Of a stretch of DNA of 64,000 bases, positions 10,334 through 59,277 are shown in pieces. Both the position numbers and the translations under genes were made by a program. A model generated the notes under the pieces. The model was given only the letters and a program-made list of their open reading frames with translations, ran no database searches and was not told the origin of the DNA. Every line of letters begins with the position of its first letter. Position 1 is the stretch's first letter. Source of the stretch: an uncultured Candidatus Poseidoniales archaeon (lineage in GTDB: Archaea; Thermoplasmatota; Poseidoniia; Poseidoniales; Thalassarchaeaceae); assembly GCA_902511005.1 (NCBI GenBank), contig CABXDN010000001.1, forward strand, positions 106,593 through 170,592, in the 5' to 3' direction.

Positions 10334-10417
10334 TATACACTGGCAAATGTATGTTCTCCTTCAACCCTACCCCTATTAGTATGAAAAATAAGAAAACTAT
10401 TACGTGTTTAAAAAATA

Positions 10418-10606
10418 TGGTGGGGGCACTGGGATTTGAACCCAGATCAGCGGGTATCTTCCGCTCAGCGTGCACTCGGTAATTGCACGCTCTCGGGTTG
10501 CGACGGGTCAGCGCTCCAGTTGGTCATCAATACCATCAGATCACTTATTCGTCGTCATTCCCGTGCAACTGGAGCCCGCTGTACTACCAAGTTATACTAT
10601 ACCCCC
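10418..10606 (-). tRNA. trnW: tRNA-Trp (anticodon CCA) with a 113-nt intron after position 37; CCA encoded
   Basis: Hand-folded. Acceptor GGGGGTA/TGCCCCC, D stem GTAT/GTAC, anticodon stem GCGGG/CCCGC, loop CTCCAG|intron|A, T arm CTGGG-TTCAAAT-CCCAG, discriminator A, then CCA. The intron is 10456..10568. The mature length is 76 nt. Confidence 0.9.
10498..10568 (-). ncRNA. Box C/D sRNA embedded in the tRNA-Trp intron
   Basis: On the minus strand: C box ATGACGA (10558..10552), D' CTGA (10539..10536), C' TGATGA (10529..10524), D CTGA (10511..10508). Both guides are exactly 12 nt. A terminal stem TTGCACGGG / CCCGTCGCAA flanks the boxes. The D guide CAACTGGAGC is complementary to GCTCCAGTTG, which spans the anticodon loop and exon-intron junction. 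Confidence 0.8.
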
Positions 10607-10679
10607 AAGGGTATTCCTATCGAAAGACATCGCTCTTATGATGGTCTCGGTCTAGAGATTCTAAAATAAAATAAAAAAT

Positions 10680-13010
10680 TTATAATATTATCATAATAGG
10701 GCCGACTATTATACTGAAGAATATCCAAAGCCCAAGCACAGTACATGCTAATCCCCAAGCACGAGGTCTTAACCCCACGCTAAGAGACCCCATTATACGA
10801 GATATTTCTCCTGGGAGTGATGCTATAATTCCAAAGGTGACTACTACAATTCCTGCCATTATTGAGTAACCAATAAAGAAAAATATGCATATTAATACAC
10901 CTAAAAGACCAGATCTTGCAACCGCCCCAATTGCTTGGGGGATGGCACTTGGTGCCCTTAGCCACAGTAACCATGCAACCCATAATCCTAGATGGAGATC
11001 ATCTAAAAACCGATTTTCTTTCCTCCAGTCGCGATATCCGTCGGGAAGTTTTGAGTATATGTACTTACCAATAATCTCGATTTCTCTGATTCCTCCTCTA
11101 AATAGCATTGATAATCCATGATAAGATAACAATATGCTAAGTATTAATTCTATATATATCCAATAAGAACCTAAGCCAAAAGAAGAAAATAACGCTACTG
11201 GAAGAGCCCAAACCGCAAATCCAATACTAGATGCATACAGAGTTAATACAACCCCTGCGCCAGGTACAAGAGGAGTATCAGGAATCTTATACTTATCTCC
11301 TCTAGGCATTGCTAAAATCATTAAGGGTAAAAATGTAGTACTAAAAATAAGTCCAAAGACATCTAATGGGTTTTGACCTGATCCAAAATAAGAGGATTCG
11401 ACAGCATCTTCAATAGATTGTGAAGACATTACACCTGCCTTCCATGAGGAAATAAATCCGGCTGAATCAATAATGAAAACAGCATCAGAAGCCTTACTAG
11501 GGAATGATTTCCCAATAGTTGAATCTGCATCATCCATTAGTACCGGCCAACTGCCATTAATTTCACTTACTAGTTCTTCAAGATCTAGACTATTGACGCC
11601 CTCTCCAGTTGCAATTTGAAGAAAAGCAACGTCGCTTCCAATTGCGTTCTGAGCAAGTTCAAAGTCGACTCTCTGAATCTCTGCATTTGGAGAACTTGGA
11701 GTGAATAAACCTACTACTATCGCATCATAATCTGAAATTAGCTCACTTAATTCAACTAATTCAGATTCAGAGCCATGTTCATATAACGAAAATGATGGAG
11801 CGGCACCCTCCATTCTTGGTTCATCAAAATCTATGTCAGGTAGGTTCAATGATGGCCCTAAAGTAGTCAAAGCAAGCAATAGAATTACTCCATACGCAGG
11901 AAGAGGCAGCATAGCATCTTTCATTGAAACTCCGATCCATGCAATAATTCCTAGTGGGATTAATATTGCAGCCCAAGTTCCATTCAATAATGCCTTTTCA
12001 GGTTCTAATACTTCAAATCTCAAAACCCCTACTAAGTCACAACTTTCTCCTGGATCTTGATCAGATAATTTATAACAACTATCTACCATATATTTCCCAG
12101 GTGACAATGATTTTGGAGAAGACCAAGTGAATACGGTTCGATTGAATTCATCAGTTCTATATCCGTGAGGAATCTCAAAATGATCTAATCTCGTATCTTC
12201 ATCAGCATTACCATGAATGAGGTCTGCCCATTCAACAGGACCTATCACTTCCAATACCTGAGATATGTAAAGGTCATTCCCCCAAGGTGAGTTAGGTGTG
12301 AATTCCACTCTAATTATACCATTTGGATCAACGGTTTGATCAAGCTCAGGATAAATTAATTCTCCCTGGAAATCAATCCCAGTGATAGCATCATAGGTAT
12401 CCCACCATAGTACTCCTGTTTGTGTACAATCATGTATTACATCAACCTTTAAACCTACTAAATCGCCTTTCTGAAGGCTGACATTGACGTCATTAGCATC
12501 AACAATAAATTCATGAGCCAAAGTAAATGATTCTTCCATTACTATTGAATTACTCTCAACGGATGATAATACTTGATTATCGCCTAATGATAGCGATACT
12601 GAAAATTTTGTTTCGGAACCCAGAGGAGAATCCGGCAATACATTTGTGAATCTGCAACCATCGTTGGCAACATCCAGAGATGCAAAAAGACGTATGCTTA
12701 TGTTTCCATTAAAATCTAAATCTTCTTCCAACGGTGCAGATTGAATATCTATTAGATTCTGTGGACTTACCGTTTTCTGAAAATCAATCGAACCTATTGG
12801 CTGACCTGTCAACGAACTCCAATTGTTATCTAAATATGGGCCATTCGAATCTCCTTTCAGGAAAAGTCGATGGCTTTCCGGTTTCTCCCATTCTATGCCT
12901 GGTCCTTCAGGCGCTATTATTTGGGCTGATGACATATGAGTAAAAGATAGAAAAACAAGTAAAAACATAGATAATGATACAAACACCTTGTTTGACCTTC
13001 TACCATCCAT
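10680..13010 (-). CDS. Hypothetical large membrane protein: signal peptide, extracellular domain, thioredoxin-fold (TlpA/ResA-like) module without CxxC, C-terminal polytopic region
   Basis: 776 aa. N-terminus MDGRRSNKVFVSLSMFLLVFLSFTHMSSAQ. The central segment FSLYEHGSE..IVVGLFTPSSPNAE..WPVLMDDADSTIGKSF..AVFIIDSAGFI follows the TlpA-like pattern, but SPNA replaces CPPC. There are at least 8 hydrophobic helices. Confidence 0.5.
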   Translation of the reverse strand: MDGRRSNKVFVSLSMFLLVFLSFTHMSSAQIIAPEGPGIEWEKPESHRLFLKGDSNGPYLDNNWSSLTGQPIGSIDFQKTVSPQNLIDIQSAPLEEDLDFNGNISIRLFASLDVANDGCRFTNVLPDSPLGSETKFSVSLSLGDNQVLSSVESNSIVMEESFTLAHEFIVDANDVNVSLQKGDLVGLKVDVIHDCTQTGVLWWDTYDAITGIDFQGELIYPELDQTVDPNGIIRVEFTPNSPWGNDLYISQVLEVIGPVEWADLIHGNADEDTRLDHFEIPHGYRTDEFNRTVFTWSSPKSLSPGKYMVDSCYKLSDQDPGESCDLVGVLRFEVLEPEKALLNGTWAAILIPLGIIAWIGVSMKDAMLPLPAYGVILLLALTTLGPSLNLPDIDFDEPRMEGAAPSFSLYEHGSESELVELSELISDYDAIVVGLFTPSSPNAEIQRVDFELAQNAIGSDVAFLQIATGEGVNSLDLEELVSEINGSWPVLMDDADSTIGKSFPSKASDAVFIIDSAGFISSWKAGVMSSQSIEDAVESSYFGSGQNPLDVFGLIFSTTFLPLMILAMPRGDKYKIPDTPLVPGAGVVLTLYASSIGFAVWALPVALFSSFGLGSYWIYIELILSILLSYHGLSMLFRGGIREIEIIGKYIYSKLPDGYRDWRKENRFLDDLHLGLWVAWLLWLRAPSAIPQAIGAVARSGLLGVLICIFFFIGYSIMAGIVVVTFGIIASLPGEISRIMGSLSVGLRPRAWGLACTVLGLWIFFSIIVGPIMIIL

Positions 13011-15565: not shown

Positions 15566-15784
15566 CTAAACTATCGCACCGCATGAGCCACAGTATAGCT
15601 CCTTCCTCGTTCCATCTTTCTGCATGCTCCACTCACCACATGCAGGACATGGCGGAAGGCCTCTCTCACTGGGTGGTACTACGGGGCCTCTACGCGGCTT
15701 CTTTTTCTCAGGACGAAACCAACCTTTCTTGGGCTTCTTGACTTTGGGCAACTTCTCACCATTGAGCACGAGTATGGGTCTCAT
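15566..15784 (-). CDS. Small basic zinc-ribbon protein (72 aa)
   Basis: ATG start. Lys/Arg/Pro-rich N-terminus followed by CPACG-x17-CGSCG (CPxCG zinc ribbon, reminiscent of S27ae-type ribbons). The high GC content is explained by Arg/Pro/Gly codons. Confidence 0.5.
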   Translation of the reverse strand: MRPILVLNGEKLPKVKKPKKGWFRPEKKKPRRGPVVPPSERGLPPCPACGEWSMQKDGTRKELYCGSCGAIV

Positions 15785-15837
15785 TGAAGATTGTTGGCAT
15801 ACCGAGTAAATGATTTACCGTACCTTTATCGCAATTT

Positions 15838-16773
15838 ATGGAAATCACAGTCGTTGGTGCAGGAGTTTCTGGTTTGACCACAGGAATTAGGTTACTAGAA
15901 GAGGGTTGGGGAGTTAAGATAATGACTGAAGATGTAAGTCCAAATACTGTATCAGATGTTGCCGCAGCATGGTGGTATCCATTTCTTGTAGAGCCAATAG
16001 AGAAAACTAATAGATGGGCTTCAGAAACATTTGATGAATTACTCAGATTGAAGAATGTTGAGGGCGTCGAATGTATAACTTTGCGAAAAGGTAGAGAATA
16101 TCTTGACGAAATATGTGAACCACCGGGGTGGAGCCTTGGGCTCCCATATTTTAGAATCCTAGATGAAGATGAGATAGTTGGAGAATATAAATTCGGTTGG
16201 GAAATGGAAGCACCCGTTATTGAAATGAATTCTTACATGCCATGGTTATTAAATAAATTTAAAAAACTAGGGGGAACGTTAGAATTACAAAAATTTGATT
16301 CGATTAAAGATGTATCAGGAGACCTAATTGTGAATTGCTCAGGACTAGGAGCTAGAGAATTCTGCTCTGACGAAAAAGTAATACCAGTAAGAGGACAAGT
16401 AATCTATATCAAACAGGACCCAGGTTTTGGACGCTTCGATCAACAACCTGAAACACTGACTTACACTATACCAAGAAGAGATTTTACAGTACTAGGAGGA
16501 ACTGCACAAAAAGGCGATTGGGACGAAACAGTTCGGCATAAGGATACAGAGTATATTCTTTCGAAATGTGAAGCATTATGGCCGGAATTAGATCGAAACA
16601 AAATCATAGGCGTGGCTGTTGGTTTGAGGCCATCACGTGATGAACTTAGACTGGAAAAAGAAATCATTAGTAACAAAATTATAATTCATAATTATGGTCA
16701 TGGAGGTGCAGGAGTCACTCTATCTTGGGGTTGTGCTGATGAAGTAGTTAGATTATTAAAAATCAATACGTAG
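15838..16773 (+). CDS. FAD-dependent D-amino-acid oxidase (DAAO/DDO family)
   Basis: N-terminal dinucleotide fold VVGAGVSGLTTG, AAAWWYPF, and C-terminal HNYGHGGAGVTLSWGCA, which is typical of eukaryote-type DAAO. Confidence 0.8.
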   Translation: MEITVVGAGVSGLTTGIRLLEEGWGVKIMTEDVSPNTVSDVAAAWWYPFLVEPIEKTNRWASETFDELLRLKNVEGVECITLRKGREYLDEICEPPGWSLGLPYFRILDEDEIVGEYKFGWEMEAPVIEMNSYMPWLLNKFKKLGGTLELQKFDSIKDVSGDLIVNCSGLGAREFCSDEKVIPVRGQVIYIKQDPGFGRFDQQPETLTYTIPRRDFTVLGGTAQKGDWDETVRHKDTEYILSKCEALWPELDRNKIIGVAVGLRPSRDELRLEKEIISNKIIIHNYGHGGAGVTLSWGCADEVVRLLKINT

Positions 16774-50545: not shown

Positions 50546-50980
50546 ATGGACCTCTACGGCAAAGTATCAAGTGGTCTTGGCAGAGCTCATGTTTTTATGG
50601 CTCAACCACATTATCAAGAGCAATTTAAACAGGTGTTGAAAGTCAGTGCTTGGCCGGGTACTCTTAACCTAGATATGGATAAATCTAGTTTGGCAAATTA
50701 CAGAAATTTAAGAATATTATCTGGATTAGAAGAAGGTGAATTTTCACAGCATACTGAGAAATTCAGGATAAAGGGATTCGAAAGAGATGGCAAATCATTC
50801 GGAGGAGCTACTGCATTCCCTGCAAAAATATCAGCAGATGGGAAGTATTGGATTGCTTGCGCGATATTAATCCCTGATTTAACAAGACATACGGAAACCG
50901 CAGAAGTTATTTCAGGTTCATTTCTGAGAGAATCTTTACCATGTGAAGATGGGGAGAAATTAGAGATTAGATTGAATTGA
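50546..50980 (+). CDS. ribK: CTP-dependent riboflavin kinase (archaeal RibK, DUF120)
   Basis: GKVSSGLGRAHVFMAQPHYQEQFKQVLKVSAWPGTLNL resembles the RibK N-terminal pattern. The track start at 50504 is GTG; the ATG at 50546 matches family N-termini. Confidence 0.75.
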   Translation: MDLYGKVSSGLGRAHVFMAQPHYQEQFKQVLKVSAWPGTLNLDMDKSSLANYRNLRILSGLEEGEFSQHTEKFRIKGFERDGKSFGGATAFPAKISADGKYWIACAILIPDLTRHTETAEVISGSFLRESLPCEDGEKLEIRLN

Positions 50981-51830
50981 GCGAATCTTCCCAATCTCTT
51001 TCTAATAATAATCCCATTTCTAATTTAGCCATGGATAACCATCTCTTAAATCGATATTTCTTTTTAGGGGCTGTAGAAAAACCAATTGTATCAGGATTAC
51101 AATGTAGCCCCATCCCTTGAGAAAACTGATGCTCGATAGACCACAAAATAAGCCCGTTCGATTGTGCTCTCCCTAAATCTAATGGAATTTCTGGTTTGTT
51201 TAAAGCGGATTCAAGTGATGTGAATTTAATACGACCTACTGCAACTCCTGTAATCGCTGCTGCTATTCTTCTTACTTGATTCCAAAGAAATGCCTCGGAA
51301 CAGATCAATATTCCTATAATACGGCCATCAGAGGAATACCATGGCTCGCACATGTCTATAGTTCGAATAGGGTTTTTATCTTCTTCTAACTTACAGAAAT
51401 TTGTGAAATCATGAGTCCCAATCATTATTTTACAAGCATTAAGAAATAATTCATCATCAATGCCACTAGACCATTCTTCAATTAATTCTGTTCGAAATAA
51501 ATATGTCCTTGCTTTAGCAGCGCGACTTCTTATATTTGACTCGACTTTAATGACATCCCAAGCGCATAATCCCTCAGGGAATCTATTGTTCAATACACGA
51601 AGTATAGTTTTCTTATCAACTTCATTCCAAACTGTAATCGGGACATCGATACAAGCTAGATTCATCCTCACGCTGACACCTGCATCGGTTCGACTAGACA
51701 TTTCTAAACAGCCGTCGCTCCACCAACTAACCTTCCTGAGTGCATTCTCAATTGCTTTCTGCACAGTAGGGACATTGGGTTGAATTTGAGAACCATGGAA
51801 CAAATCTCCATGATATCCAAAAGCGACCAT
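50967..51830 (-). CDS. truA: tRNA pseudouridine synthase A
   Basis: MVAFGYHGDLFHGSQIQP and SSRTDAGVSV (catalytic Asp). The track start at 51863 is TTG; the ATG at 51830 matches the usual family N-terminus. Confidence 0.85.
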   Translation of the reverse strand: MVAFGYHGDLFHGSQIQPNVPTVQKAIENALRKVSWWSDGCLEMSSRTDAGVSVRMNLACIDVPITVWNEVDKKTILRVLNNRFPEGLCAWDVIKVESNIRSRAAKARTYLFRTELIEEWSSGIDDELFLNACKIMIGTHDFTNFCKLEEDKNPIRTIDMCEPWYSSDGRIIGILICSEAFLWNQVRRIAAAITGVAVGRIKFTSLESALNKPEIPLDLGRAQSNGLILWSIEHQFSQGMGLHCNPDTIGFSTAPKKKYRFKRWLSMAKLEMGLLLERDWEDSLNSI

Positions 51831-51863
51831 GATTCGGCCGCGATTCAATTGGAACTCCTCCAA

Positions 51864-52412
51864 TTATTCCTCAGTAGACAGATATTCCATCGCTTCGTCA
51901 ACCGATGAAAATCCGAGTCCGAGAATTGCGAATTCTATGGCAACTGGTATGAATTGTCTAGCGAATTGTTCACTTCTATCGTAACCTACCTTAACATCAA
52001 TTGAATCAATAAGTTGCTTTGCAGCCTCATAAAGATGGAATGAAACATCAACATCTTCTAATTTCTTACCTAATTGAATAAGTTTCTGAAACTCTCTAAC
52101 CGCCATTGGAACTCTATCAAATTCAATTAATGCATTGGCATATGCCGCCTGATATTCAGAATTATCTGGTTCTAAACCTGCAGCCTTACGAAGATATGAT
52201 TGGACTTTACCTTCATTAATTCGATCATTTCCTTTTTCATCAAAATTACCATTTTCTTGTATCTCAAACATTGCTGATTCAGCCCAACCATGGTAACCTG
52301 CAGGGTCTTTTGGATTGTTTGTGACATGTTCTTCAAAGATTTCCATGGCCCCCATGAAATCTCCTTTTGTAATGTGTTGTGCTGCAATTGTAACGATATC
52401 TTCTTCTGACAT
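51864..52412 (-). CDS. Hypothetical helical-repeat (TPR-like) protein
   Basis: 182-aa ORF with an ATG start and helical-repeat character. Its stop lies next to the truA ORF. Confidence 0.45.
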   Translation of the reverse strand: MSEEDIVTIAAQHITKGDFMGAMEIFEEHVTNNPKDPAGYHGWAESAMFEIQENGNFDEKGNDRINEGKVQSYLRKAAGLEPDNSEYQAAYANALIEFDRVPMAVREFQKLIQLGKKLEDVDVSFHLYEAAKQLIDSIDVKVGYDRSEQFARQFIPVAIEFAILGLGFSSVDEAMEYLSTEE

Positions 52413-52483
52413 AGGGAATCCCTCTATGTCTCTCTCGATGGCTTTTACATTAAGAACGGTGCGGAATAGTAATCTTAAGTTAA

Positions 52484-53413
52484 CTAATCATTTTCAACTA
52501 ATAAATCGGGTCTACCATTTTTCATATCTATCAATTCATTAGCTAATTCGTAAACAACCATTGGCTGTTTAATTCCAAAAAAGCATTCTGAAGGAGGTAA
52601 TATAATCTCTTTACTAGATCTTTTATAAAAAATTAATAATTTGATTATATGGGCGGATTTTTGAATCAAGTTTCTTTCATCATTAGCCTTAGGAGGAATA
52701 TCTGAATTAATTTCTAAAATAGGTAAAATATTCCCAATACCAATTAATTTCCCGACAATTGACTGTTGAGTAATTAGATTTTCTAAGTCTTCAAAGGCAA
52801 TACTTGTATGAGATTTATAGAAAATTAACTGGCGTCTTTGGATATAAAGATTTTTATCTGTCATGATATAAGAATATGAAAATTGAGAGATTATTGAAAA
52901 AGAAAATATGATTAAACCGTTAATTATTCCGAGAGCTAAAAACCAAGTATCGAACCATTCAGGCACATTTAATGCCTCTCTACCAATTAATAATAAAAAC
53001 CAATCAATAATATTTATGATAAACCATACTGAAGGTATCAAACCAATGAAAACTAAGAATAGTGATGTTTTGGTAGTCGAAGTTGAAAAATTAAGAAAAT
53101 AATTAATCCTAGCAAATATAATCATAACAACGACAAATGCAAATACGTCTATTAAATCAAATAATTGGCCTATTATACGTATGGCTGTATTAAGATATCC
53201 GCTCTGTCCTTCGGCATAAACAGTCACAGCAACTCGGTAAAAACAGAAATGAATTAAGAAAACAAAAAAGGCTAGACAATATTGCGGAAAATAGGATGAA
53301 AATGTAGGTTTACCTTCCCAAATTGGGACTTCGTCCTCAGAAATAAAAGAAAAATTATCTCTAAATTTTTCTTCATCAATTAATGACTTGAAACTAGAAA
53401 TTAAATCTTCCAA
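52484..53413 (-). CDS. Membrane protein with YdbS/YdbT-like bacterial PH (bPH_2) features
   Basis: EVPIWEGKPTF followed by TM helices and YIMTDKNLYIQRR..SIVGKLIGIGNI. TTG start preceded by GAGGTGG with a 7-nt spacer. Confidence 0.45.
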   Translation of the reverse strand: MEDLISSFKSLIDEEKFRDNFSFISEDEVPIWEGKPTFSSYFPQYCLAFFVFLIHFCFYRVAVTVYAEGQSGYLNTAIRIIGQLFDLIDVFAFVVVMIIFARINYFLNFSTSTTKTSLFLVFIGLIPSVWFIINIIDWFLLLIGREALNVPEWFDTWFLALGIINGLIIFSFSIISQFSYSYIMTDKNLYIQRRQLIFYKSHTSIAFEDLENLITQQSIVGKLIGIGNILPILEINSDIPPKANDERNLIQKSAHIIKLLIFYKRSSKEIILPPSECFFGIKQPMVVYELANELIDMKNGRPDLLVEND

Positions 53414-53432
53414 GTATATACCACCTCAATTA

Positions 53433-54632
53433 TTAATGGAGCAAACCCCAAGAATGCTCTGCGTTACCGTGTATCCAAGAATAATCTGACTTGGTGCGAG
53501 TACCATTTTCATCTTTAATTACTATTTTTAATAACTGAAGAGGGTATTCGTTGTAAGTTAAATGACTGACCATACCTGCCCTAGTCGGCTGATCAAAAGT
53601 CCACTTGGCGCGAGATACTGCTCTAACTTCTAGAGCAATCTGTGTCCTTTCATTCCAAACTGATACTCGGAATTTGGGTAAAGGATTACCATCATTATCA
53701 ATTAAATTTTCATCATCACCATCTGGTTCAATCAACTCAACCGTACACTTCTTGAATTCCTCGGTTCGATCTCTCTTAGCATCATGGAATATCCCAGTTC
53801 CAATTTTAGGATTTCTAAATATATCTCTAAGTTTCCATGGTTTATCATTTAAGTTCAAACAAGAAAATGAAATATGAGGCATGAACCAGTCAAGATATGA
53901 ACCGTCATCAAAATGTAACATTCCCCAAAACCAAGGAAAGGTAGGGGCTTGAACACTAACTTTTTGGAAATAGCCTGTGCCTTCAAATTTCTCATCATCA
54001 ATTATGATTGAAGCTTTAGTGCCCTGGACTCTTAAGATATCATAACCCATATCTGAAAAGAATACATTATTTTTGTAAGTCAATCGACTTGGAGGTCCCC
54101 ACCAAGGAGTTAGTTCAGCAGTAATTGATTTAGGAGCACCATTCATTTGTGCTTTTTTATCACTAGTTAAATTCAGCCAAAACTTCTTGTTACCTTTGGT
54201 CATTCCTAAAGATAAATCATCATCAACTAATGGAACCACCGCTCCTGAACCTTGCCCTTGACCTTCATCCGGCCATAATGGGTGCTTATCGTCTATTGAA
54301 ACCATTTTACACTCACGAATAATTAATGGCTCATGCATATTTTGTCCGTCAAACCACCAAGAACATACCATCCCAGGAACTACGTGACCTCCATGTTCAT
54401 CGATTCGCATTCGGGAACCCGGTTTCCACCAATGATCATTAACACGAATTGCAGGAGTTTCTTTAGACGACCATAAAACCATTAATTGTCTAGAACGACT
54501 GGGGTTATCTGGATCGGGTATGAAAATAATTACCCACCACCACCACCATGAAAGCCTTGGTAAACTTGGCATCATATCTAAACGCCATAATGAAGAATAA
54601 TCTCCTATGAATTGATCTGAATCGTCACCCAT
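53433..54632 (-). CDS. Trp-rich soluble protein, tocopherol-cyclase/CrtC-like superfamily candidate
   Basis: SWWWWWVIIFIPDP resembles EGWYFRVSIPE, and GTGYFQKVSVQAPTFPWFWGMLHF resembles [23 protein letters not shown] of plant/cyanobacterial tocopherol cyclase as I recall it. GAGGTG RBS. Confidence 0.4.
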   Translation of the reverse strand: MGDDSDQFIGDYSSLWRLDMMPSLPRLSWWWWWVIIFIPDPDNPSRSRQLMVLWSSKETPAIRVNDHWWKPGSRMRIDEHGGHVVPGMVCSWWFDGQNMHEPLIIRECKMVSIDDKHPLWPDEGQGQGSGAVVPLVDDDLSLGMTKGNKKFWLNLTSDKKAQMNGAPKSITAELTPWWGPPSRLTYKNNVFFSDMGYDILRVQGTKASIIIDDEKFEGTGYFQKVSVQAPTFPWFWGMLHFDDGSYLDWFMPHISFSCLNLNDKPWKLRDIFRNPKIGTGIFHDAKRDRTEEFKKCTVELIEPDGDDENLIDNDGNPLPKFRVSVWNERTQIALEVRAVSRAKWTFDQPTRAGMVSHLTYNEYPLQLLKIVIKDENGTRTKSDYSWIHGNAEHSWGLLH

Positions 54633-54641
54633 AATTACACC

Positions 54642-56255
54642 TCACATGATCTCTTTATTTCTAAAAATTGACTGCCCTATAGCAATCATTCCTATACTAA
54701 TTGATAACATTATTACTACACTTATTATCAATGCAACAAAAGGATTTCCTGTTTCTAAAGTATGAACAGGCGGGTGCCAGAAAAATGAGATTCCGGTCTC
54801 CAAGCCGAATGCATCCGCTTTTTGTTGAATTAGAGATGTGTCACTCCAAGATATCATGACTACAGCATCAATTATCTGAATTGCCCAGTGAGAAACAGAA
54901 AGCATTGTAATACTAGCATTAGGAATAGTGATTGTAAATAAACCCATTAAAAATTCCCATATGCCGTAAAGAATACAGATATAGACGCCGTATTTTGGCA
55001 TCACTAAGCCAACTGTATTGAAAATAGATCCATACGCAGTTAATACTAGAATTGTCGCGAGAGCAATGCCCATCCATACAGGATAATCAGATAATCTCAC
55101 TATAGAATCTCCAGGCCCTATCAGAGAAGTAATTAGAGCAACAATCAAAATAAGCATCACTGTATACGATACTACAATACCAAGATAACCCAGTAACCGA
55201 TAGAGAATAAATTCCCCTCTGTGAATAGGCTTAGAAAGCAAGTAGTGTAAAGTACCATTTTCAGATTCATCCCTAACAAGTCCTAAAGCCAAAAATAAAG
55301 GTAGGAAAAGGCCTAGAATCATTACAAAGGCGATTTTACCAGTACCAATAATGAAAGTCCTATGACTTGACTCGCCTATATGTTCAGAATCATCTGGATC
55401 TTCATCAACATTATTATCAGCTCGAATTGAAACTAAATTACCATTCTGATCATAAATCCATTCGACATCACAACTTATTCCATTTCTGTTACTATCATTT
55501 GGAGAATTATCTTCAGTCTGGTACTCATCTTTCAGACAATCTCCATCATCATCTATACCATTTATTGGATCTTCATCAATATACATTGATTTCGGATGTT
55601 TCTCAACAAAAAATGACTCGGTCATATAGCCCCATTCTGCAGACCAACCTGGTTCAACTGAGATTTCACCTTCTCCTGCGAAACTTGCTCCAAATACCAC
55701 ATAGGTACCATTTTCTAGAGCACAATAACTTGGCGACTGGAAATAAGTCCAGTCATCAAAAGGGCTACCATCAGGACAATCTATTCCTCGGCTGCCCCAA
55801 TCTATCCAATTATAGTAACTAAACGGACTTTCTGCCTCTTCATCAATCCAAGTGGGGGTGAAATATCCTGTAGCATAGAGCCATGTATGATTCCCGTAAT
55901 GAGTTCTTGGTTGGTCATTATAATCAATATCACCAAGGTACACGTATTCTGATGAACCGGGGTAATTATTGGTATCATAATCGCTAGTCCCATAAATCAT
56001 TTCTTGACCTAATGGATACCCATCATTATCCCAATCTTCACTATCACCATCATTATCTATTGGTTCAAAATTTGCTCTTATAGAATCTATATAAAATGCA
56101 AGTAATAGAGATATCAATAATACACCTACACCCAATACTACCCAAGTTGATATTCGATTACGCAGTTGACGTATAGTCAACTCTGTTATAGCACCGGCTT
56201 TCCTATCTAATTGAGTCCAAACTGTTTCTGAGAGTTTTCGGCCCTGATCATCCAT
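54642..56255 (-). CDS. ABC-2-type permease with a roughly 270-aa Asp-rich (Ca-binding-like) extracellular domain
   Basis: One N-terminal TM helix. Exodomain with DNDGDSEDWDNDGYP, DDDGDCLKDE and NNVDEDPDD. About six C-terminal TM helices. ATG at 56255 is preceded by GGAGG with an 8-nt spacer; the track TTG is at 56270. Confidence 0.6.
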   Translation of the reverse strand: MDDQGRKLSETVWTQLDRKAGAITELTIRQLRNRISTWVVLGVGVLLISLLLAFYIDSIRANFEPIDNDGDSEDWDNDGYPLGQEMIYGTSDYDTNNYPGSSEYVYLGDIDYNDQPRTHYGNHTWLYATGYFTPTWIDEEAESPFSYYNWIDWGSRGIDCPDGSPFDDWTYFQSPSYCALENGTYVVFGASFAGEGEISVEPGWSAEWGYMTESFFVEKHPKSMYIDEDPINGIDDDGDCLKDEYQTEDNSPNDSNRNGISCDVEWIYDQNGNLVSIRADNNVDEDPDDSEHIGESSHRTFIIGTGKIAFVMILGLFLPLFLALGLVRDESENGTLHYLLSKPIHRGEFILYRLLGYLGIVVSYTVMLILIVALITSLIGPGDSIVRLSDYPVWMGIALATILVLTAYGSIFNTVGLVMPKYGVYICILYGIWEFLMGLFTITIPNASITMLSVSHWAIQIIDAVVMISWSDTSLIQQKADAFGLETGISFFWHPPVHTLETGNPFVALIISVVIMLSISIGMIAIGQSIFRNKEIM

Positions 56256-56256
56256 A

Positions 56257-57198
56257 TTAGGTGCCTCCAATTAAGTACCCTAGTAATGATTCTAAATTAT
56301 CATCAGGATTGTCTATCCGAGATACTGAAACTTTTGAATTAACAATAACTCGGGGTAAAACTGAATGAGCTGCAGATAAGTCATTCGTCTGTATTTCTAA
56401 TTTTCCTTCTTCAGGAAATCTGACTCCGTATACAGGTTCTTCGCTAATAAATGCGCTTGCTAACTTCCTCGGTTCATCCGTAGTGATCATAATTCTATGG
56501 GGATGTTTGTCCAATAAATCACGAATAGCATATAAGTTCCCAAGAGCTAGTAATCGTCCATTATGAAGAATAACTATTTGCTCAGTAATTCGTTCTATTT
56601 CTTCTAAAATATGACTGGATACAAGTACTGTTTTACCTTGGCTTCCAAGTTCCCTAATTACATTCATAATACTGGTTCGAGCAATGGGGTCACAACCATG
56701 TAATGGTTCATCTAATATTATCAAATCAGGATCATGGACTAATGCATGAGCGATTTTTACCCTTTGCCGCATACCTTTACTATACTTCCCGATTTCTTTG
56801 TGACGAACATCATGCAGACCCACGAAATCAAGTACATGCTCTGCCCTTGCATTTGCTTCTTCTCTGGTCATACCATGTAATCTAGCAAGTGTAGATACAA
56901 AATCCTGAGCAGTCATCCAATCGTAAAGTCTTTCAGATTCGCTGACATAACCTATTCTTCGATAAGGTGAAGTATCTGACCAAGGATCTATTCCAAAAAG
57001 CTTGACGCTGCCTTGACTCGGCTTAAGACGACCCATTAGTAATTTGAATAGCGTGGATTTACCTGCCCCATTTGGGCCAAGTATACCAGTAACGCCACCA
57101 TCTATTGCTAAAGAGACATCATTGATTCCCATAACTTGGCCATACCATTTGGAAACATTTTCTAAAATAACTGAAGGAGTTTTATTATCTTCACTCAT
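56257..57198 (-). CDS. ABC transporter ATP-binding protein (ABC-2 subfamily)
   Basis: Walker A GPNGAGKST, signature YSKGMRQRVKIAHAL, Walker B LILDEP. Confidence 0.9.
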   Translation of the reverse strand: MSEDNKTPSVILENVSKWYGQVMGINDVSLAIDGGVTGILGPNGAGKSTLFKLLMGRLKPSQGSVKLFGIDPWSDTSPYRRIGYVSESERLYDWMTAQDFVSTLARLHGMTREEANARAEHVLDFVGLHDVRHKEIGKYSKGMRQRVKIAHALVHDPDLIILDEPLHGCDPIARTSIMNVIRELGSQGKTVLVSSHILEEIERITEQIVILHNGRLLALGNLYAIRDLLDKHPHRIMITTDEPRKLASAFISEEPVYGVRFPEEGKLEIQTNDLSAAHSVLPRVIVNSKVSVSRIDNPDDNLESLLGYLIGGT

Positions 57199-58208
57199 TC
57201 TCGAGTCACCTCCAAAGAACTAACTCTTGAGATTAATATCATAATTGAAATTAGATTCATCATTATCAAGGATACTACTGATAGAGATAATGAATGAGAA
57301 TAATTGAGTTCTAGACCCAATAACCACTGACCTAAATGGGCAAGGCAGTCATAGGGACTTAAGACGTATAGTATTGAAGTTTCGAATTGAAGATCGACTA
57401 ATAGGGCAACTAACTTTGTACCATATATTATGCTTAAAAAAGCAATCGCTGAAAAGAATCTACTCTGACTTATGCTAGACAATGCCAAGCCAATGGATGT
57501 ATATGTTATGACAAGTAATAAACTACACAACAAACCAGACAAAAACAAAGGAAGTGTATCGATTAAAAAACCCCAACCTTCTCCTTTGAATACTATTGCA
57601 AGTGTGTAATATGCCATGTAAGAAAATACTATAACAAAACCCAAAACTACTGCTACGCTCAAATATTTCATCAAAGTATAGTCAACTCTTGTCACCGGCC
57701 TAGAGAAATATATTGCACTAGTGCCATTTCTCCTATCATCTGAAATCATACCTCCAACAACAAGAGCAGTTAGCAATGGCCAGTAGCATAAATTCCTAGG
57801 GAAATACCCTAAAACTTGCCCCCATAAATTACTGCGATTAATACCCCACATTTTGTCAATGAAACTATCAGGCCCTGCACCAAATAATGATGAGAAAAAT
57901 AACATAGCAATTGGAGAAATGGCACCGATGAATATGACCAAAATAGTTAGTCTAACAAAAGGGTTGTAATGTCTGTGACCCTTTGAAGTAAATAAGCCGA
58001 AAACATGATGTCGAAAAATCGCATAATTCCTAACCCATCGAGGGCCAAGATTACCATCCCATGGTCGATAATTTTGCTCGAAAATAGCGCCTAAAGAAGC
58101 TTCTTTCTTTGCAACTATTGCTGAAGAATCATTATCTCCATCGTCTGAACCATATGCCACTTCCATACGCGTTTGACCTCCATCTAGGTCGATCAAATCG
58201 TCACTCAT
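57195..58208 (-). CDS. ABC-2-type permease
   Basis: 337 aa with a cytoplasmic N-terminus and about six TM helices. ATGA overlaps occur at both ends. Confidence 0.6.
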   Translation of the reverse strand: MSDDLIDLDGGQTRMEVAYGSDDGDNDSSAIVAKKEASLGAIFEQNYRPWDGNLGPRWVRNYAIFRHHVFGLFTSKGHRHYNPFVRLTILVIFIGAISPIAMLFFSSLFGAGPDSFIDKMWGINRSNLWGQVLGYFPRNLCYWPLLTALVVGGMISDDRRNGTSAIYFSRPVTRVDYTLMKYLSVAVVLGFVIVFSYMAYYTLAIVFKGEGWGFLIDTLPLFLSGLLCSLLLVITYTSIGLALSSISQSRFFSAIAFLSIIYGTKLVALLVDLQFETSILYVLSPYDCLAHLGQWLLGLELNYSHSLSLSVVSLIMMNLISIMILISRVSSLEVTRE

Positions 58209-59200
58209 ACGTTTGCCTCCCCTGTATGCTCAGAAGTCATAAGGTCAGATGTTTTCTTGACTTCTGCACCTAATTTATCCATTATAAGTAAAAAGATATC
58301 TTCTAAATCAGGTTCATATTCACCCATCTTTCTTACTTGCACACCACTTTCAACAGCACATTCTAAAATTATTGAAATTGTATCTTCAGACTCTACTTTA
58401 ATCCTCATTACTCTACCTAGACGTCTGACTATGAGTCCTTTAGATTCCAAAGAATCTTGCATCCTAGATGAACCGCCCCAAACAGATATTTCTATTTCCT
58501 CATCAACTTGTTTGGCAAGCTCATCTATTCTCCTATGGACTACTATTTTGCCCTTATGAATCATAACAATATCATCACATACTTCTTGAATATCATCCAT
58601 GACGTGGCCACTCATCAATACAGTTCTACCTCCTTGATTAACTGTGTTCCTAAGTGTTTGTAACATAAAATCACGAGCACGTTGATCAAGACCGTTGGTT
58701 GGTTCATCGCATATGAGAATTTCCGGATCATGGATTAATGCACAAGCAAGTTTAGTCGCTTGTTTCATACCTGTACTAAATGTTTCAATTTTACGATATC
58801 TTTGATCTTTGAGGCCAACATATTCTAACACTTCATGCGCCCTTTGAGTCGCTTGAGAGGGATTCATTCCAATTAATTCACCAGAATAGCGTACTTGATC
58901 AATTGCAGATAATCCGGGATCTAAAGAGTCATATTCTGGCATATATCCAATTTTTGAACGTATTAGATCACCCTGAGTTCTGATATCATAACCTAGAACT
59001 GTTCCCTCGCCTGAAGTAGTTGTAATCAAACCTAAGATGCATTTGAAGAAAGTAGATTTACCCGCACCATTAGGTCCAAGAATTCCAGTAGCACCCGATT
59101 CGAGTTTTAGATTCAGACCCTGGAGAGCAATATGAGGACCATACATCTTGACCAAATCTTTGGTCTCAATTACCAATTTGGGGTCTGAATTAACAGTCAA
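58205..59200 (-). CDS. ABC transporter ATP-binding protein (ABC-2 subfamily)
   Basis: Walker A GPNGAGKST, signature FSTGMKQATKLACAL, Walker B LICDEPTNGLD, and a C-terminal regulatory-type domain. TTG start. Confidence 0.9.
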   Translation of the reverse strand: MTVNSDPKLVIETKDLVKMYGPHIALQGLNLKLESGATGILGPNGAGKSTFFKCILGLITTTSGEGTVLGYDIRTQGDLIRSKIGYMPEYDSLDPGLSAIDQVRYSGELIGMNPSQATQRAHEVLEYVGLKDQRYRKIETFSTGMKQATKLACALIHDPEILICDEPTNGLDQRARDFMLQTLRNTVNQGGRTVLMSGHVMDDIQEVCDDIVMIHKGKIVVHRRIDELAKQVDEEIEISVWGGSSRMQDSLESKGLIVRRLGRVMRIKVESEDTISIILECAVESGVQVRKMGEYEPDLEDIFLLIMDKLGAEVKKTSDLMTSEHTGEANV

Positions 59201-59277
59201 AAAATCACCAACACCCTACGGGTGTCATTACTTCGTTAGAATTTGTCCTATTGAATGAATCGCCTACAAGACCTGAA

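What the first reader, a model, noticed from the sequence alone, without database searches (positions are those of the whole stretch)
52484..59200. Tightly coupled double ABC-2 exporter operon with an Asp-rich exodomain permease, a cyclase-like Trp-rich protein and a PH-domain membrane protein
Six co-directional genes are packed with ATGA overlaps or 1-19 nt gaps. In order they are ATPase (58205..59200), ABC-2 permease (57195..58208), a second ATPase (56257..57198), a second permease (54642..56255), a Trp-rich soluble protein (53433..54632) and a bPH-like membrane protein (52484..53413). The second permease carries a roughly 270-aa extracellular domain with thrombospondin-type-3-like DxDxDGxxD clusters. 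Several of the genes have strong GAGGTG/GGAGG sites. A duplicated ATPase-permease module combined with a candidate lipid-binding or cyclase barrel and a membrane PH protein is not a cassette I can name. It could be an export or maturation system for a hydrophobic (isoprenoid or quinone-like) or surface-bound molecule.
Basis: inference. Interest (0 to 1): 0.65.

Follow-up and report, generated by a model that had tools for sequence, protein, structure and literature searches.

The report
Archaeal double ABC exporter with hydratase-fold partner
Marine Group II archaea keep a five-gene operon that joins a two-ATPase, two-permease ABC-2 exporter to a Trp-rich protein with the fold of isoprenoid hydratases, so it probably modifies and exports a lipid-like molecule; the neighbouring PH-domain membrane gene is only loosely attached to it.

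Summary
The six minus-strand ORFs, their -4/-4/+1/+9/+19 nt junctions and their Shine-Dalgarno sites are all present as described. The organism is a Marine Group II archaeon (Thalassarchaeaceae).

Comparison of about 110 related loci shows that the conserved unit has five genes, not six. These are ATPase A1, permease P1, ATPase A2, permease P2 and the Trp-rich protein W. The P2-to-W gap is at most 45 nt in all 76 loci measured (median 9 nt). The bPH gene sits a median of 68 nt further on. It is missing in one clade, is displaced by a 7.6 kb insert in another, and is the least conserved gene of the neighbourhood.

W matches no Pfam or NCBIfam model. Its AlphaFold model (pLDDT 85) matches only AttH NE1406 and kievitone hydratase, which are members of the CrtC/AttH isoprenoid-hydratase superfamily. 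One archaeal member of that superfamily was recently shown to make hydroxy-GDGT lipids.

Both ATPases keep intact catalytic motifs, and their nearest solved relatives are ABCA lipid exporters. The Asp-rich motifs of the P2 exodomain are conserved even where the exodomain shrinks from about 250 to about 95 residues.

Outside Marine Group II and its closest relatives, W homologues stand alone with no ABC genes nearby. My best reading is an isoprenoid-modifying enzyme coupled to a lipid-type exporter. The function itself is inferred, not shown.

The parts
58205..59200 (-). A1: ABC ATPase (331 aa) with a C-terminal DrrA1-3_C-like domain; first gene of the operon
   Evidence: ABC_tran E 1.3e-29 and DrrA1-3_C E 3e-5. 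Walker A GPNGAGKS, signature FSTGM, Walker B ILICDEP and an H-loop His are intact. GGTGAT lies 6 nt before the TTG start.
57195..58208 (-). P1: ABC-2 permease (337 aa) with an ~85-aa cytoplasmic N-terminal extension and no large exodomain
   Evidence: ABC2_membrane_2 E 1.4e-7. Five clear hydrophobic segments. ATGA overlap with A1.
56257..57198 (-). A2: second ABC ATPase (313 aa), 38% identical to A1
   Evidence: ABC_tran E 2.2e-31. Intact catalytic motifs. A1 versus A2 is 38% identical, E 4e-51. The nearest solved relatives are ABCA7/1/4/3, Rv1218c and NosF.
54642..56255 (-). P2: second ABC-2 permease (537 aa), six TM segments, with an exodomain between TM1 and TM2
   Evidence: ABC2_membrane_2 E 8e-13. 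Topology by hydropathy, with a positively charged N-terminus. The AF2 model is poor (pLDDT 57.6). It has weak fold matches to the ABCG5/8, ABCG25 and NosY membrane domains.
55341..56087 (-). Coding region of the P2 exodomain (about residues 57-305): very acidic, 4 conserved Cys, fast evolving, variable in size between lineages
   Evidence: 54 acidic and 8 basic residues. 75% identity against 96% for the membrane domain in the closest relative. P2 length classes are about 390, about 440 and 536-569 aa.
56013..56060 (-). Asp-rich motif 1 (IDNDGDSEDWDNDGYP, residues 66-81), Ca-binding-loop-like
   Evidence: Invariant D/G positions in 17 homologues. The strict pattern was found in 48 of 70 Marine Group II P2 proteins. 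A related form (VDNDGDG..SEDG) is kept in the 385-390 aa deep-lineage P2.
55524..55553 (-). Asp-rich motif 2 (DDDGDCLKDE, residues 235-244) with a conserved Cys
   Evidence: D235-L241 are invariant. DDDGDC is present in 59 of 70 P2 proteins.
53433..54632 (-). W: 399-aa Trp-rich soluble protein of a family without a Pfam model; AttH/CrtC-like double beta-barrel fold; last gene of the conserved five-gene core
   Evidence: No Pfam, NCBIfam or PADLOC hit. AF2 pLDDT 85.3, pTM 0.88. Foldseek gives 2ICH AttH at E 1.5e-9 and 7A0T kievitone hydratase at E 1e-7, both probability 1.00, and the next hit is above 1e-3. The P2-to-W gap has a median of 9 nt and a maximum of 45 nt in 76 loci.
52484..53413 (-). 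bPH-domain membrane protein (309 aa, about 4 TM segments then a bPH_2-like domain): a loosely linked neighbour, possibly co-transcribed in this clade only
   Evidence: bPH_2 E 0.037 here; the L004 orthologue has a strong PF03703 hit on record and others have weak ones. The gap is 19 nt here, but the median is 68 nt. The gene is absent in 9 loci. Median identity is 23%.
59200..59227 (-). Hairpin (8 bp stem) plus a T6 run in the TgtA-A1 spacer, ending at the A1 start codon; a candidate terminator of tgtA or a 5'-leader element
   Evidence: Terminator-like site found; sequence read. Function not tested.

Best explanation
The locus is a five-gene operon (A1-P1-A2-P2-W). It is conserved in the Marine Group II archaea sampled and in deeper relatives. 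A1, A2, P1 and P2 most likely assemble into one heteromeric type-V (ABC-2/ABCA/ABCG-like) exporter with two catalytically competent ATP sites. P2 contributes a small, acidic, Ca-loop-like external domain braced by conserved Cys, and this domain has been enlarged in this lineage. W is a cytoplasmic or membrane-peripheral protein of the AttH/CrtC fold. Known enzymes of that fold protonate an isoprenoid C=C bond and add water. I propose that W modifies (hydrates, or possibly cyclises) a membrane-embedded isoprenoid substrate such as a lipid tail, carotenoid or prenylquinone. I further propose that the exporter flips or extrudes the product to the outer face of the membrane. Shown: the gene order, the coupling, the conservation, the ABC motifs and the fold of W. 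Inferred: the heteromeric assembly, the catalytic activity of W, the substrate class and the direction of transport. The bPH gene is a neighbour that may ride on the same transcript in this clade, but it is not a required component.
For: Operon: overlaps or gaps of 9 nt or less from A1 to W, each start with a Shine-Dalgarno site. Across about 110 loci the array A1-P1-A2-P2-W is always intact. The A2-to-P2 gap has a median of -1 nt. The P2-to-W gap has a median of 9 nt and is 20 nt or less in 69 of 76 loci. The same holds in deep relatives where W is only 38-41% identical.

Conservation: the cassette genes are better conserved than their housekeeping neighbours. Median identities are A2 65%, A1 62%, P1 51% and W 51%, against TgtA 46% and TruA 38%.

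Heteromer: A1 and A2 are old paralogues (38% identity), as are P1 and P2 (29% over 99 aa). Both ATPases keep the Walker A and B motifs and the H-loop.

Lipid-type exporter: the nearest solved ATPase relatives are the phospholipid exporters ABCA7/1/4/3 (E about 1e-55, summed over their two NBDs), then Rv1218c and NosF.

Fold of W: 2ICH AttH and 7A0T kievitone hydratase are the only matches with E at or below 1e-3. Residues that stay invariant down to about 20% identity include Y221-x-Q223, W234-x-W236, Y360-N-E362 and N390-x-E392..W395-G396. This is the kind of alternating Tyr/acid and aromatic pattern shown to be catalytic in CrtC, where H239, W241, Y266 and D268 are required (PMC4717167).

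Precedents: an archaeal AttH-like protein, Hgs, hydrates isoprenoid double bonds to make OH-GDGTs (bioRxiv 10.1101/2025.10.20.683597). Bacterial AttH/DUF2006 genes are noted to associate with ABC transporters (PMC2954199). One distant W homologue lies next to a geranylgeranyl reductase (L125).

Expression: the locus is present in marine RNA libraries, which hold up to 76% of its sampled words.
Against: There is no direct functional evidence. W matches no sequence model of CrtC, AttH or DUF2006, and the Foldseek TM-scores are moderate (0.45-0.56, rmsd about 8.7 A). Outside Marine Group II and its close relatives, W homologues (about 25-35% identical) are solitary genes with unrelated neighbours and no ABC ATPase within 8 kb, so the W-ABC link is lineage-specific. 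The whole TgtA...TruA backbone is syntenic in this order, so conserved adjacency alone is weak evidence; the argument rests on the tight coupling. The RNA contigs cover every junction, including TgtA-A1 and bPH-TPR, at flat depth. They therefore do not define transcript limits, and DNA carry-over cannot be excluded. The nearest ATPase relatives also include non-lipid systems (NosF, drug efflux).
Confidence: 0.42

Rival explanations
1. W is not an enzyme. It is a lipocalin-like carrier that binds a hydrophobic molecule in the cytoplasm or at the inner leaflet and hands it to the ABC-2 exporter (or receives it), as was suggested for bacterial DUF2006/AttH proteins.
For: The fold is a double lipocalin-like barrel. 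The NE1406 paper infers a lipid-transport role from ABC-transporter context (PMC2954199). The P2-W coupling is tight and conserved. The 23 Trp residues could line a binding cavity.
Against: Glu, Tyr, Gln and Asn residues stay invariant down to about 20% identity. That pattern is more typical of an active site than of a greasy binding pocket. The experimentally characterised members of the fold (CrtC, kievitone hydratase, Hgs) are all enzymes. Distant homologues function without any ABC partner.
Confidence: 0.25
2. The exporter is a housekeeping envelope or detoxification pump (drug, peptide or metal-chaperone type, like DrrAB, Rv1217c-1218c or NosFY). Its substrate has nothing to do with W, and W is merely co-transcribed in a compact genome.
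For: The best NCBIfam hits are the DrrA subfamily, GldA and NodI. Rv1218c and NosF are among the nearest solved ATPases. W homologues elsewhere are solitary. The genome is compact and broadly syntenic.
Against: All of those family scores are far below the curated cutoffs, for example DrrA 218 against 312 and GldA 192 against 403. No NosD/L/Z or GldG partner is present. The P2-W spacing stays at 45 nt or less over the whole depth of the order, while other junctions such as W-bPH and TgtA-A1 drift or break.
Confidence: 0.15
3. One reading: all six genes, including the bPH membrane protein, form one obligatory machine for export or maturation of a hydrophobic or surface-bound molecule.
For: There is a 19 nt gap and a GAGGTGG site before the bPH gene in this window. 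The bPH gene follows W in most Marine Group II loci and in the deep relatives. RNA contigs span the W-bPH junction.
Against: The bPH gene is absent between W and the TPR gene in 9 loci that keep the cassette (L012-L017, L024-L026). It is separated by 7.6 kb in L001-L003 and by about 2.7 kb in L110. The median gap is 68 nt, and only 5 of 57 loci are within 20 nt. Median identity is 23%, the lowest in the neighbourhood. TgtA, the TPR gene and TruA are just as syntenic, so adjacency is not specific.
Confidence: 0.1
4. The system is a mechanotransmission device like NosDFY or LolCDE. ATP hydrolysis drives conformational work in the Ca-binding exodomain of P2 to mature or anchor a surface protein or S-layer component, rather than moving a small molecule across the membrane.
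For: The Asp-rich, Cys-braced exodomain core is conserved even in the minimal 385-390 aa P2. The exodomain evolves fast, as surface-exposed parts do. NosY is the only PDB sequence hit of the P2 profile, although it is not significant (E 1.2).
Against: No extracellular partner gene is conserved in the operon. W has no signal peptide or TM segment. The NosY similarity is not significant, and the P2 model is too poor to judge.
Confidence: 0.08

Closest known systems
AttH-like / CrtC superfamily (NE1406 AttH 2ICH; kievitone hydratase 7A0T; carotenoid 1,2-hydratase CrtC; archaeal hydroxy-GDGT synthase Hgs)
   Same: W's confident model has the same two-barrel lipocalin-like fold (Foldseek E 1.5e-9 and 1e-7). 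It has an N-terminal W-rich first strand and invariant alternating Tyr/acid and aromatic residues. Known members act on isoprenoid double bonds.
   Different: No sequence-level match to PF07143, PF09410, PF17186 or any Pfam model in 29 family members. The conserved acids are Glu, not the Asp of CrtC. W is not next to a B12-radical-SAM desaturase as Hgs is. It is translationally coupled to an ABC-2 permease.
Bacterial attEFGH / DUF2006-ABC gene associations
   Same: An AttH-fold gene is linked to an ABC transporter. The literature already suggests a lipid-transport role from such context (PMC2954199).
   Different: From my own knowledge, not tested here: those systems use LolD/MacB-type ATPases and FtsX-type permeases, and the AttH protein is predicted to be secreted. 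In this window the partners are two ABC-2 pairs, W lacks any signal sequence, and the host is an archaeon.
PmtABCD of Staphylococcus aureus (four-component ABC-2 exporter)
   Same: The same gene grammar of ATPase-permease-ATPase-permease, implying a heteromeric ABC-2 exporter. PmtC (6XJH) is among the structural relatives of A2.
   Different: The PmtA and PmtC equivalog scores are 116-117 and 104 bits against cutoffs of 350 and 375. There is no phenol-soluble-modulin context. P2 carries an exodomain, and a W gene is attached.
Eukaryotic ABCA lipid exporters (ABCA1/3/4/7)
   Same: They are the best solved-structure relatives of the A2 ATPase (E about 1e-55, summed over two NBDs). They are type-V exporters with two non-identical halves, C-terminal regulatory-like domains after each NBD, and an exodomain between TM1 and TM2.
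   Different: In ABCA the parts form one polypeptide, whereas here there are four separate chains. Only P2 has an exodomain, and it shows no detectable similarity to ABCA exodomains. The permease similarity is only at family level.
NosDFY / GldAFG ABC-2 systems
   Same: Same Pfam permease family (ABC2_membrane_2). GldA, GldF and NosF are among the hits. JGI annotates P2 homologues generically as 'multi-copper enzyme maturation permease'.
   Different: The scores are far below the equivalog cutoffs. No NosD, NosL, NosZ or GldG is present in the neighbourhood. There are two ATPase-permease pairs instead of one.

Membership tests
ABC-2 / type V ABC exporter | ATPase with Walker A, signature, Walker B (D-E) and H-loop | tested here: met
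   Both A1 and A2 match ABC_tran at E <= 1e-29, and all motifs are present.
ABC-2 / type V ABC exporter | Separate six-TM permease of the ABC-2 membrane families | tested here: met
   P1 and P2 pass the PF12679 gathering score (31.5 and 48.7 against 27.2). P2 has six hydrophobic segments; P1 has five clear ones.
PmtABCD-type four-component exporter | Gene order ATPase-permease-ATPase-permease in one operon | tested here: met
   Overlapping genes A1-P1-A2-P2, conserved in about 110 loci.
PmtABCD-type four-component exporter | Orthology to PmtA/PmtC (NCBIfam equivalogs) | tested here: not met
   NF047565 scores 116-117 bits against a cutoff of 350. NF047568 scores 104 bits against 375.
NosDFY(L) | NosF/NosY orthology and NosD/NosL/NosZ partners | tested here: not met
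   The P2 profile against NosY gives E 1.2. No Nos partner is among the neighbours.
GldAFG gliding-motility transporter | GldA/GldF equivalog scores and a GldG auxiliary protein | tested here: not met
   GldA scores 186-192 against 403, and GldF scores 28 against 288. There is no GldG-like gene.
AttH-like / CrtC superfamily | Two orthogonally packed lipocalin-like beta-barrels | tested here: met
   The AF2 model has pLDDT 85 and is all-beta. Foldseek probability is 1.00 to 2ICH and 7A0T, and no other hit has E <= 1e-3.
AttH-like / CrtC superfamily | Sequence match to PF07143 (CrtC), PF09410 (DUF2006) or PF17186 | tested here: not met
   No such hit at E <= 1 in any of 29 family members. No PDB sequence hit even with a profile.
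AttH-like / CrtC superfamily | Catalytic His-x-Trp and Tyr-x-Asp pairs (CrtC numbering H239, W241, Y266, D268) | tested here: inconclusive
   W has invariant W234-x-W236, Y221-x-Q223, Y360-x-E362 and E392. Structural equivalence could not be checked without the coordinates.
Hydroxy-GDGT synthase (Hgs) | Gene overlapping a B12-radical-SAM tetraether desaturase (ted); OH-GDGT production | tested here: not met
   There is no radical-SAM neighbour in the window or beside distant homologues.
bPH_2 (YdbS/YdbT-like bacterial PH domain membrane proteins) | PF03703 domain after N-terminal TM helices | tested here: inconclusive
   The window protein scores 14.7 bits against a cutoff of 22 (E 0.037). The L004 orthologue has a hit on record at E <= 1e-5, and other orthologues have weak hits. 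About four TM segments precede the domain.
Thrombospondin type 3 repeat | Match to the Pfam TSP type 3 repeat model | tested here: not met
   There is no Pfam hit in the exodomain at E <= 0.1. The only resemblance is at motif level: DxDxDG..D loops that are invariant among homologues.

The most novel reading that the evidence does not exclude
W is a new family of archaeal isoprenoid-lipid hydratase or cyclase. The split ABCA-like exporter then moves the modified lipid to the outer leaflet or surface. This would make the abundant, uncultured Marine Group II archaea a source of hydroxylated or otherwise modified isoprenoid lipids in the ocean. It would also provide a first example of an enzyme-plus-flippase operon for archaeal membrane remodelling.
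Probability: 0.15. Interest if true: 0.75.

Novelty: new variant of a known kind. Interest (0 to 1): 0.5.

Why it matters
Marine Group II archaea are among the most abundant planktonic archaea, have no cultured representative, and have disputed membrane lipids. In the loci sampled, this five-gene operon is present throughout the order and in deeper relatives. Its genes are better conserved than the tRNA-modification genes that flank it, and it is not described in the papers I could search. Its fifth gene founds a protein family with no Pfam model. That family extends to Bathyarchaeia, Aenigmatarchaeota and other Thermoplasmata. Its fold belongs to enzymes that hydrate isoprenoid double bonds, and one archaeal member was shown in 2025 to make hydroxy-GDGTs, lipids that (from my own knowledge) serve as ocean temperature proxies. 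If W acts on lipids, the operon offers a directly testable handle on Marine Group II lipid chemistry and on how archaea move modified lipids across the membrane. If W does not act on lipids, the locus is still a clean example of a four-chain, ABCA-like prokaryotic exporter with a minimal Ca-loop exodomain.

Tried and rejected
1. Sequence-family searches on W (Pfam, NCBIfam, PADLOC, PDB by sequence and by profile) found nothing. Only the fold comparison gave a lead.

2. The first genome scan, using a very divergent W alignment, failed for lack of a conserved stretch. A narrower alignment worked.

3. The AlphaFold model of P2 was poor (mean pLDDT 57.6, and below 50 over the Asp-rich parts). Its Foldseek matches to ABCG and NosY membrane domains have E >= 0.05. 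I use them only as weak support for a type-V fold. The exodomain fold remains unknown.

4. I laid metatranscriptome contigs on the locus to look for transcript boundaries. Coverage is flat, and contigs span every junction, including TgtA-A1 and bPH-TPR. Contigs have no strand information, and DNA carry-over is possible, so the result is uninformative.

5. I searched the gene context of distant W homologues for a recurrent partner. The neighbours are unrelated: CitG, a CBS protein, carboxypeptidase Taq, a DHH protein, ribosomal protein S3Ae, a tRNA synthetase, a GT2 glycosyltransferase, an alcohol dehydrogenase and malate dehydrogenase. The one exception is a geranylgeranyl reductase in L125.

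6. A defence-system reading was rejected: only generic ABC-ATPase hits appear in PADLOC.

7. I considered that W might be secreted or be the cargo, and rejected it. W has no signal peptide or TM segment, and the hydrophobic WWWWW stretch is a confident barrel strand.

8. I checked for an 18-nt inverted repeat that might explain odd RNA contigs at 52222 and 53167. None was found. Strain divergence over the bPH gene is the likelier cause.

Full report
**Observation**

The junctions are -4 nt (ATGA), -4 nt (ATGA), +1, +9 and +19 nt. By contrast, 77 nt separate the upstream tgtA gene from A1, and 71 nt separate the bPH gene from the next gene. Each internal start is preceded by a GGAGG/GAGGTG-type site. 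The TTG start of A1 is preceded by GGTGAT. For P2 the ATG at 56255 is the sensible start, because the longer TTG ORF begins inside its own ribosome-binding site.

Pfam calls A1 and A2 ABC_tran and calls P1 and P2 ABC2_membrane_2. It finds nothing in the fifth protein (W) and gives only a sub-threshold bPH_2 hit in the sixth. Source names of close homologues, and an archaeosine tRNA-guanine transglycosylase next door, place the window in Marine Group II archaea, family Thalassarchaeaceae.

**How far the unit extends**

I fetched about 110 loci that encode a W homologue, from genomes, metagenomes and single look-ups. I located the nine window proteins in them by tblastn.

- Every Marine Group II locus with enough flank, in both MGIIa and MGIIb, carries TgtA-A1-P1-A2-P2-W. 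So do two deep relatives whose W is only 38-41% identical to the window's.
- Estimated gaps: A2-to-P2 has a median of -1 nt. P2-to-W has a median of 9 nt and a maximum of 45 nt, and 69 of 76 loci are at 20 nt or less.
- W-to-bPH has a median of 68 nt, and only 5 of 57 loci, all in this window's clade, are at 20 nt or less.
- TgtA-to-A1 has a median of 66 nt and is never below 31 nt.
- The bPH gene is missing between W and the TPR gene in nine loci that keep the cassette (L012-L017, L024-L026).
- The bPH gene is pushed 7.6 kb away by an inserted block in L001-L003 and about 2.7 kb away in L110.
- Median identities to the window proteins are A2 65%, A1 62%, P1 51%, W 51%, TgtA 46%, P2 40%, TruA 38%, TPR 32% and bPH 23%.

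The conserved, translationally coupled unit is therefore A1-P1-A2-P2-W. The bPH gene is a backbone neighbour, like tgtA, the TPR gene and truA. It may be co-transcribed in this clade, but it is dispensable elsewhere.

Metatranscriptome assemblies contain the locus, holding up to 76% of its sampled words. Their contigs cover all junctions at flat depth, including the ones that should be boundaries. They therefore say nothing about transcript limits.

**The transporter**

A1 and A2 are 38% identical. P1 and P2 share 29% identity over 99 residues. This points to an old duplication of an ATPase-permease pair. Both ATPases keep Walker A, the (F/Y)SxGM signature, Walker B with D-E, and the H-loop His, so neither site looks degenerate.

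All NCBIfam hits (the DrrA subfamily, GldA, NodI, PmtA/C and others) fall far below their curated cutoffs. The cassette is therefore not an orthologue of any named system. Among solved structures, the closest relatives of A2 are the phospholipid exporters ABCA7, ABCA1, ABCA4 and ABCA3. Next come Rv1218c and NosF. The permeases have no significant solved relative.

The gene grammar matches PmtABCD. The overall architecture has two unlike halves, C-terminal domains after the NBDs, and an exodomain between TM1 and TM2. It reads like an ABCA transporter split into four chains.

**The exodomain**

Hydropathy places TM1 of P2 at residues 38-56, behind a positively charged N-terminus, and TM2 at 308-326. 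The roughly 250 residues between them face outward. This stretch has 54 acidic and 8 basic residues and four conserved Cys. Its Asp-rich loops (DNDGDSEDWDNDGYP, DDDGDCL, NRNGISCD, VDEDPDD) are invariant in close homologues.

P2 falls into length classes of about 390, about 440 and 536-569 residues. In the shortest form the exodomain is about 95 residues, yet it still carries the Asp-rich loops, two of the Cys and VDEDP. The Ca-loop-like core is therefore ancestral, and the beta-rich middle part is a lineage-specific insertion.

The exodomain diverges faster than the membrane domain: 75% against 96% identity in the closest relative. Pfam does not recognise a thrombospondin type 3 repeat, so the resemblance is at motif level only. 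The AlphaFold model of P2 was too poor to assign a fold.

**The Trp-rich protein W**

W has 23 Trp in 399 residues and no TM-like segment. It has no hit in Pfam, NCBIfam, PADLOC or the PDB by sequence. A search of 1.84 billion representative proteins found 241 clusters at E <= 0.001. None of the 29 members I scanned has a Pfam hit to CrtC, AttH or DUF2006.

An AlphaFold model built from 30 homologues is confident (pLDDT 85.3, pTM 0.88) and almost all-beta. Foldseek against the PDB returns four matches with E at or below 1e-3. They are the two chains of the putative AttH NE1406 (2ICH, E 1.5e-9) and the two chains of kievitone hydratase (7A0T, E 1e-7), all at probability 1.00. Everything else is above 1e-3.

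That fold is the double lipocalin-like barrel of the CrtC/AttH group. Its characterised members add water to isoprenoid double bonds. Catalysis in CrtC depends on alternating His-x-Trp and Tyr-x-Asp residues (PMC4717167). A 2025 preprint shows that an archaeal AttH-like protein, Hgs, makes hydroxy-GDGT lipids (10.1101/2025.10.20.683597).

In the W family, the residues invariant down to about 20% identity include W31, W92, Y221-F-Q223, W234-x-W236, Y360-N-E362-Y-P and N390-x-E392-x-x-W395-G396. This pattern of polar and acidic residues fits an active site better than a passive pocket. I could not verify their positions in the model. The hydrophobic WWWWW stretch is a confident barrel strand, not a signal anchor, so W is most likely cytoplasmic or peripheral to the membrane.

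**W outside Marine Group II**

Homologues of 25-35% identity in Bathyarchaeia, Aenigmatarchaeota, other Thermoplasmata and unassigned metagenome contigs are solitary genes. No ABC ATPase lies within 8 kb of them, and their neighbours are unrelated. The single suggestive case is a geranylgeranyl reductase beside the homologue in L125. None sits next to a radical-SAM gene, so the family is not Hgs in its published context. The W-ABC coupling is thus an innovation of the Marine Group II lineage and its closest relatives.

**Interpretation**

The best-supported reading is a five-gene operon. It encodes a heteromeric type-V ABC exporter together with an AttH-fold protein that modifies a membrane isoprenoid, with the product flipped or extruded by the pump (confidence about 0.4).

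The main rival is that W is a non-catalytic lipid carrier for the pump, as was once proposed for bacterial DUF2006 proteins, which also associate with ABC transporters (PMC2954199). Less likely readings are:
- a pump unrelated to W;
- a Nos-like mechanotransmission device acting through the exodomain;

The structural statements (operon extent, ABC-2 heteromer grammar, AttH-like fold, conserved Asp-loop core) are well supported. Activity, substrate and assembly are inferred.

**Novelty and verdict**

Both ingredients are known kinds: ABC-2 exporters, including the four-gene Pmt type, and AttH-fold proteins linked to ABC transporters in bacteria. Three things are new. The combination is new: a double ABC-2 cassette translationally coupled to a cytoplasmic AttH-fold protein. 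The host lineage is new. And W founds a family that has no Pfam model. I found no paper describing this operon.

I rate it a new variant of a known kind, with moderate interest (0.5). The interest would rise sharply if W proves to be a lipid hydratase or cyclase in these uncultured, abundant archaea.

Noticed in passing
window 59200-59227 (minus strand): An 8-bp hairpin (TGACACCCGTAGGGTGTTG) followed by GTGATTTTTT ends exactly at the TTG start of A1. It could be the tgtA terminator, a leader element of the ABC operon, or both. The GGTGAT inside it doubles as the ribosome-binding site of A1.
   Followed up: partly
L001-L003 11200-18790; L110 about 9160-11830: In some Thalassarchaeaceae a block is inserted exactly between W and the bPH gene. 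In L001-L003 it is 7.6 kb with seven genes, including a PP2C_2-like protein and unknown proteins of 861 and 544 aa. This looks like a recurrent insertion hotspot or variable island.
   Followed up: no
window 50967-52412 and all Marine Group II loci: The TPR gene and truA are themselves tightly coupled (0 nt here; median 9 nt, and 20 nt or less in 57 of 62 loci). They probably form their own small operon downstream of the bPH gene.
   Followed up: partly
L089 8823-9992; L091 8844-10001: Deep relatives have a P2 of only 385-390 aa. The exodomain is reduced to about 95 residues that consist almost entirely of the Asp-rich loops plus two Cys. This could be a natural minimal version for structural work.
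   Followed up: partly
L005 5945-7357: In some MGIIb lineages P1 is enlarged to 470 aa (337 aa in the window), and the intergenic gaps inside the cassette are larger (70-400 nt by my estimate). The architecture of the first permease therefore also varies.
   Followed up: no
L125 374-2740: A distant W homologue (25% identity) lies next to a geranylgeranyl reductase gene in convergent orientation, 139 nt apart. It is the only lipid-related neighbour found among the solitary homologues.
   Followed up: partly
L063 (JAOMAZ010000023.1): A contig titled 'Deltaproteobacteria bacterium' (single-cell assembly) carries the typical Marine Group II array P2-W-bPH-TPR-TruA. It is probably a contaminant or mis-assigned contig.
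   Followed up: no
window 52222-53167: RNA-library contigs from three runs follow the window up to 52222 and 53167 and then diverge into the same unlike sequences. This suggests co-occurring strains whose bPH gene region differs by more than 5%. It is consistent with bPH being the fastest-evolving gene here (83% identity in L009, where its neighbours are 93-100%).
   Followed up: partly
L052, L054, L064, L136 about 15700-16350; L124 7485-8126: Several MGIIa loci have a further ABC ATPase gene (about 30% identical to A2) some 6.5 kb downstream of W. It was not examined.
   Followed up: no
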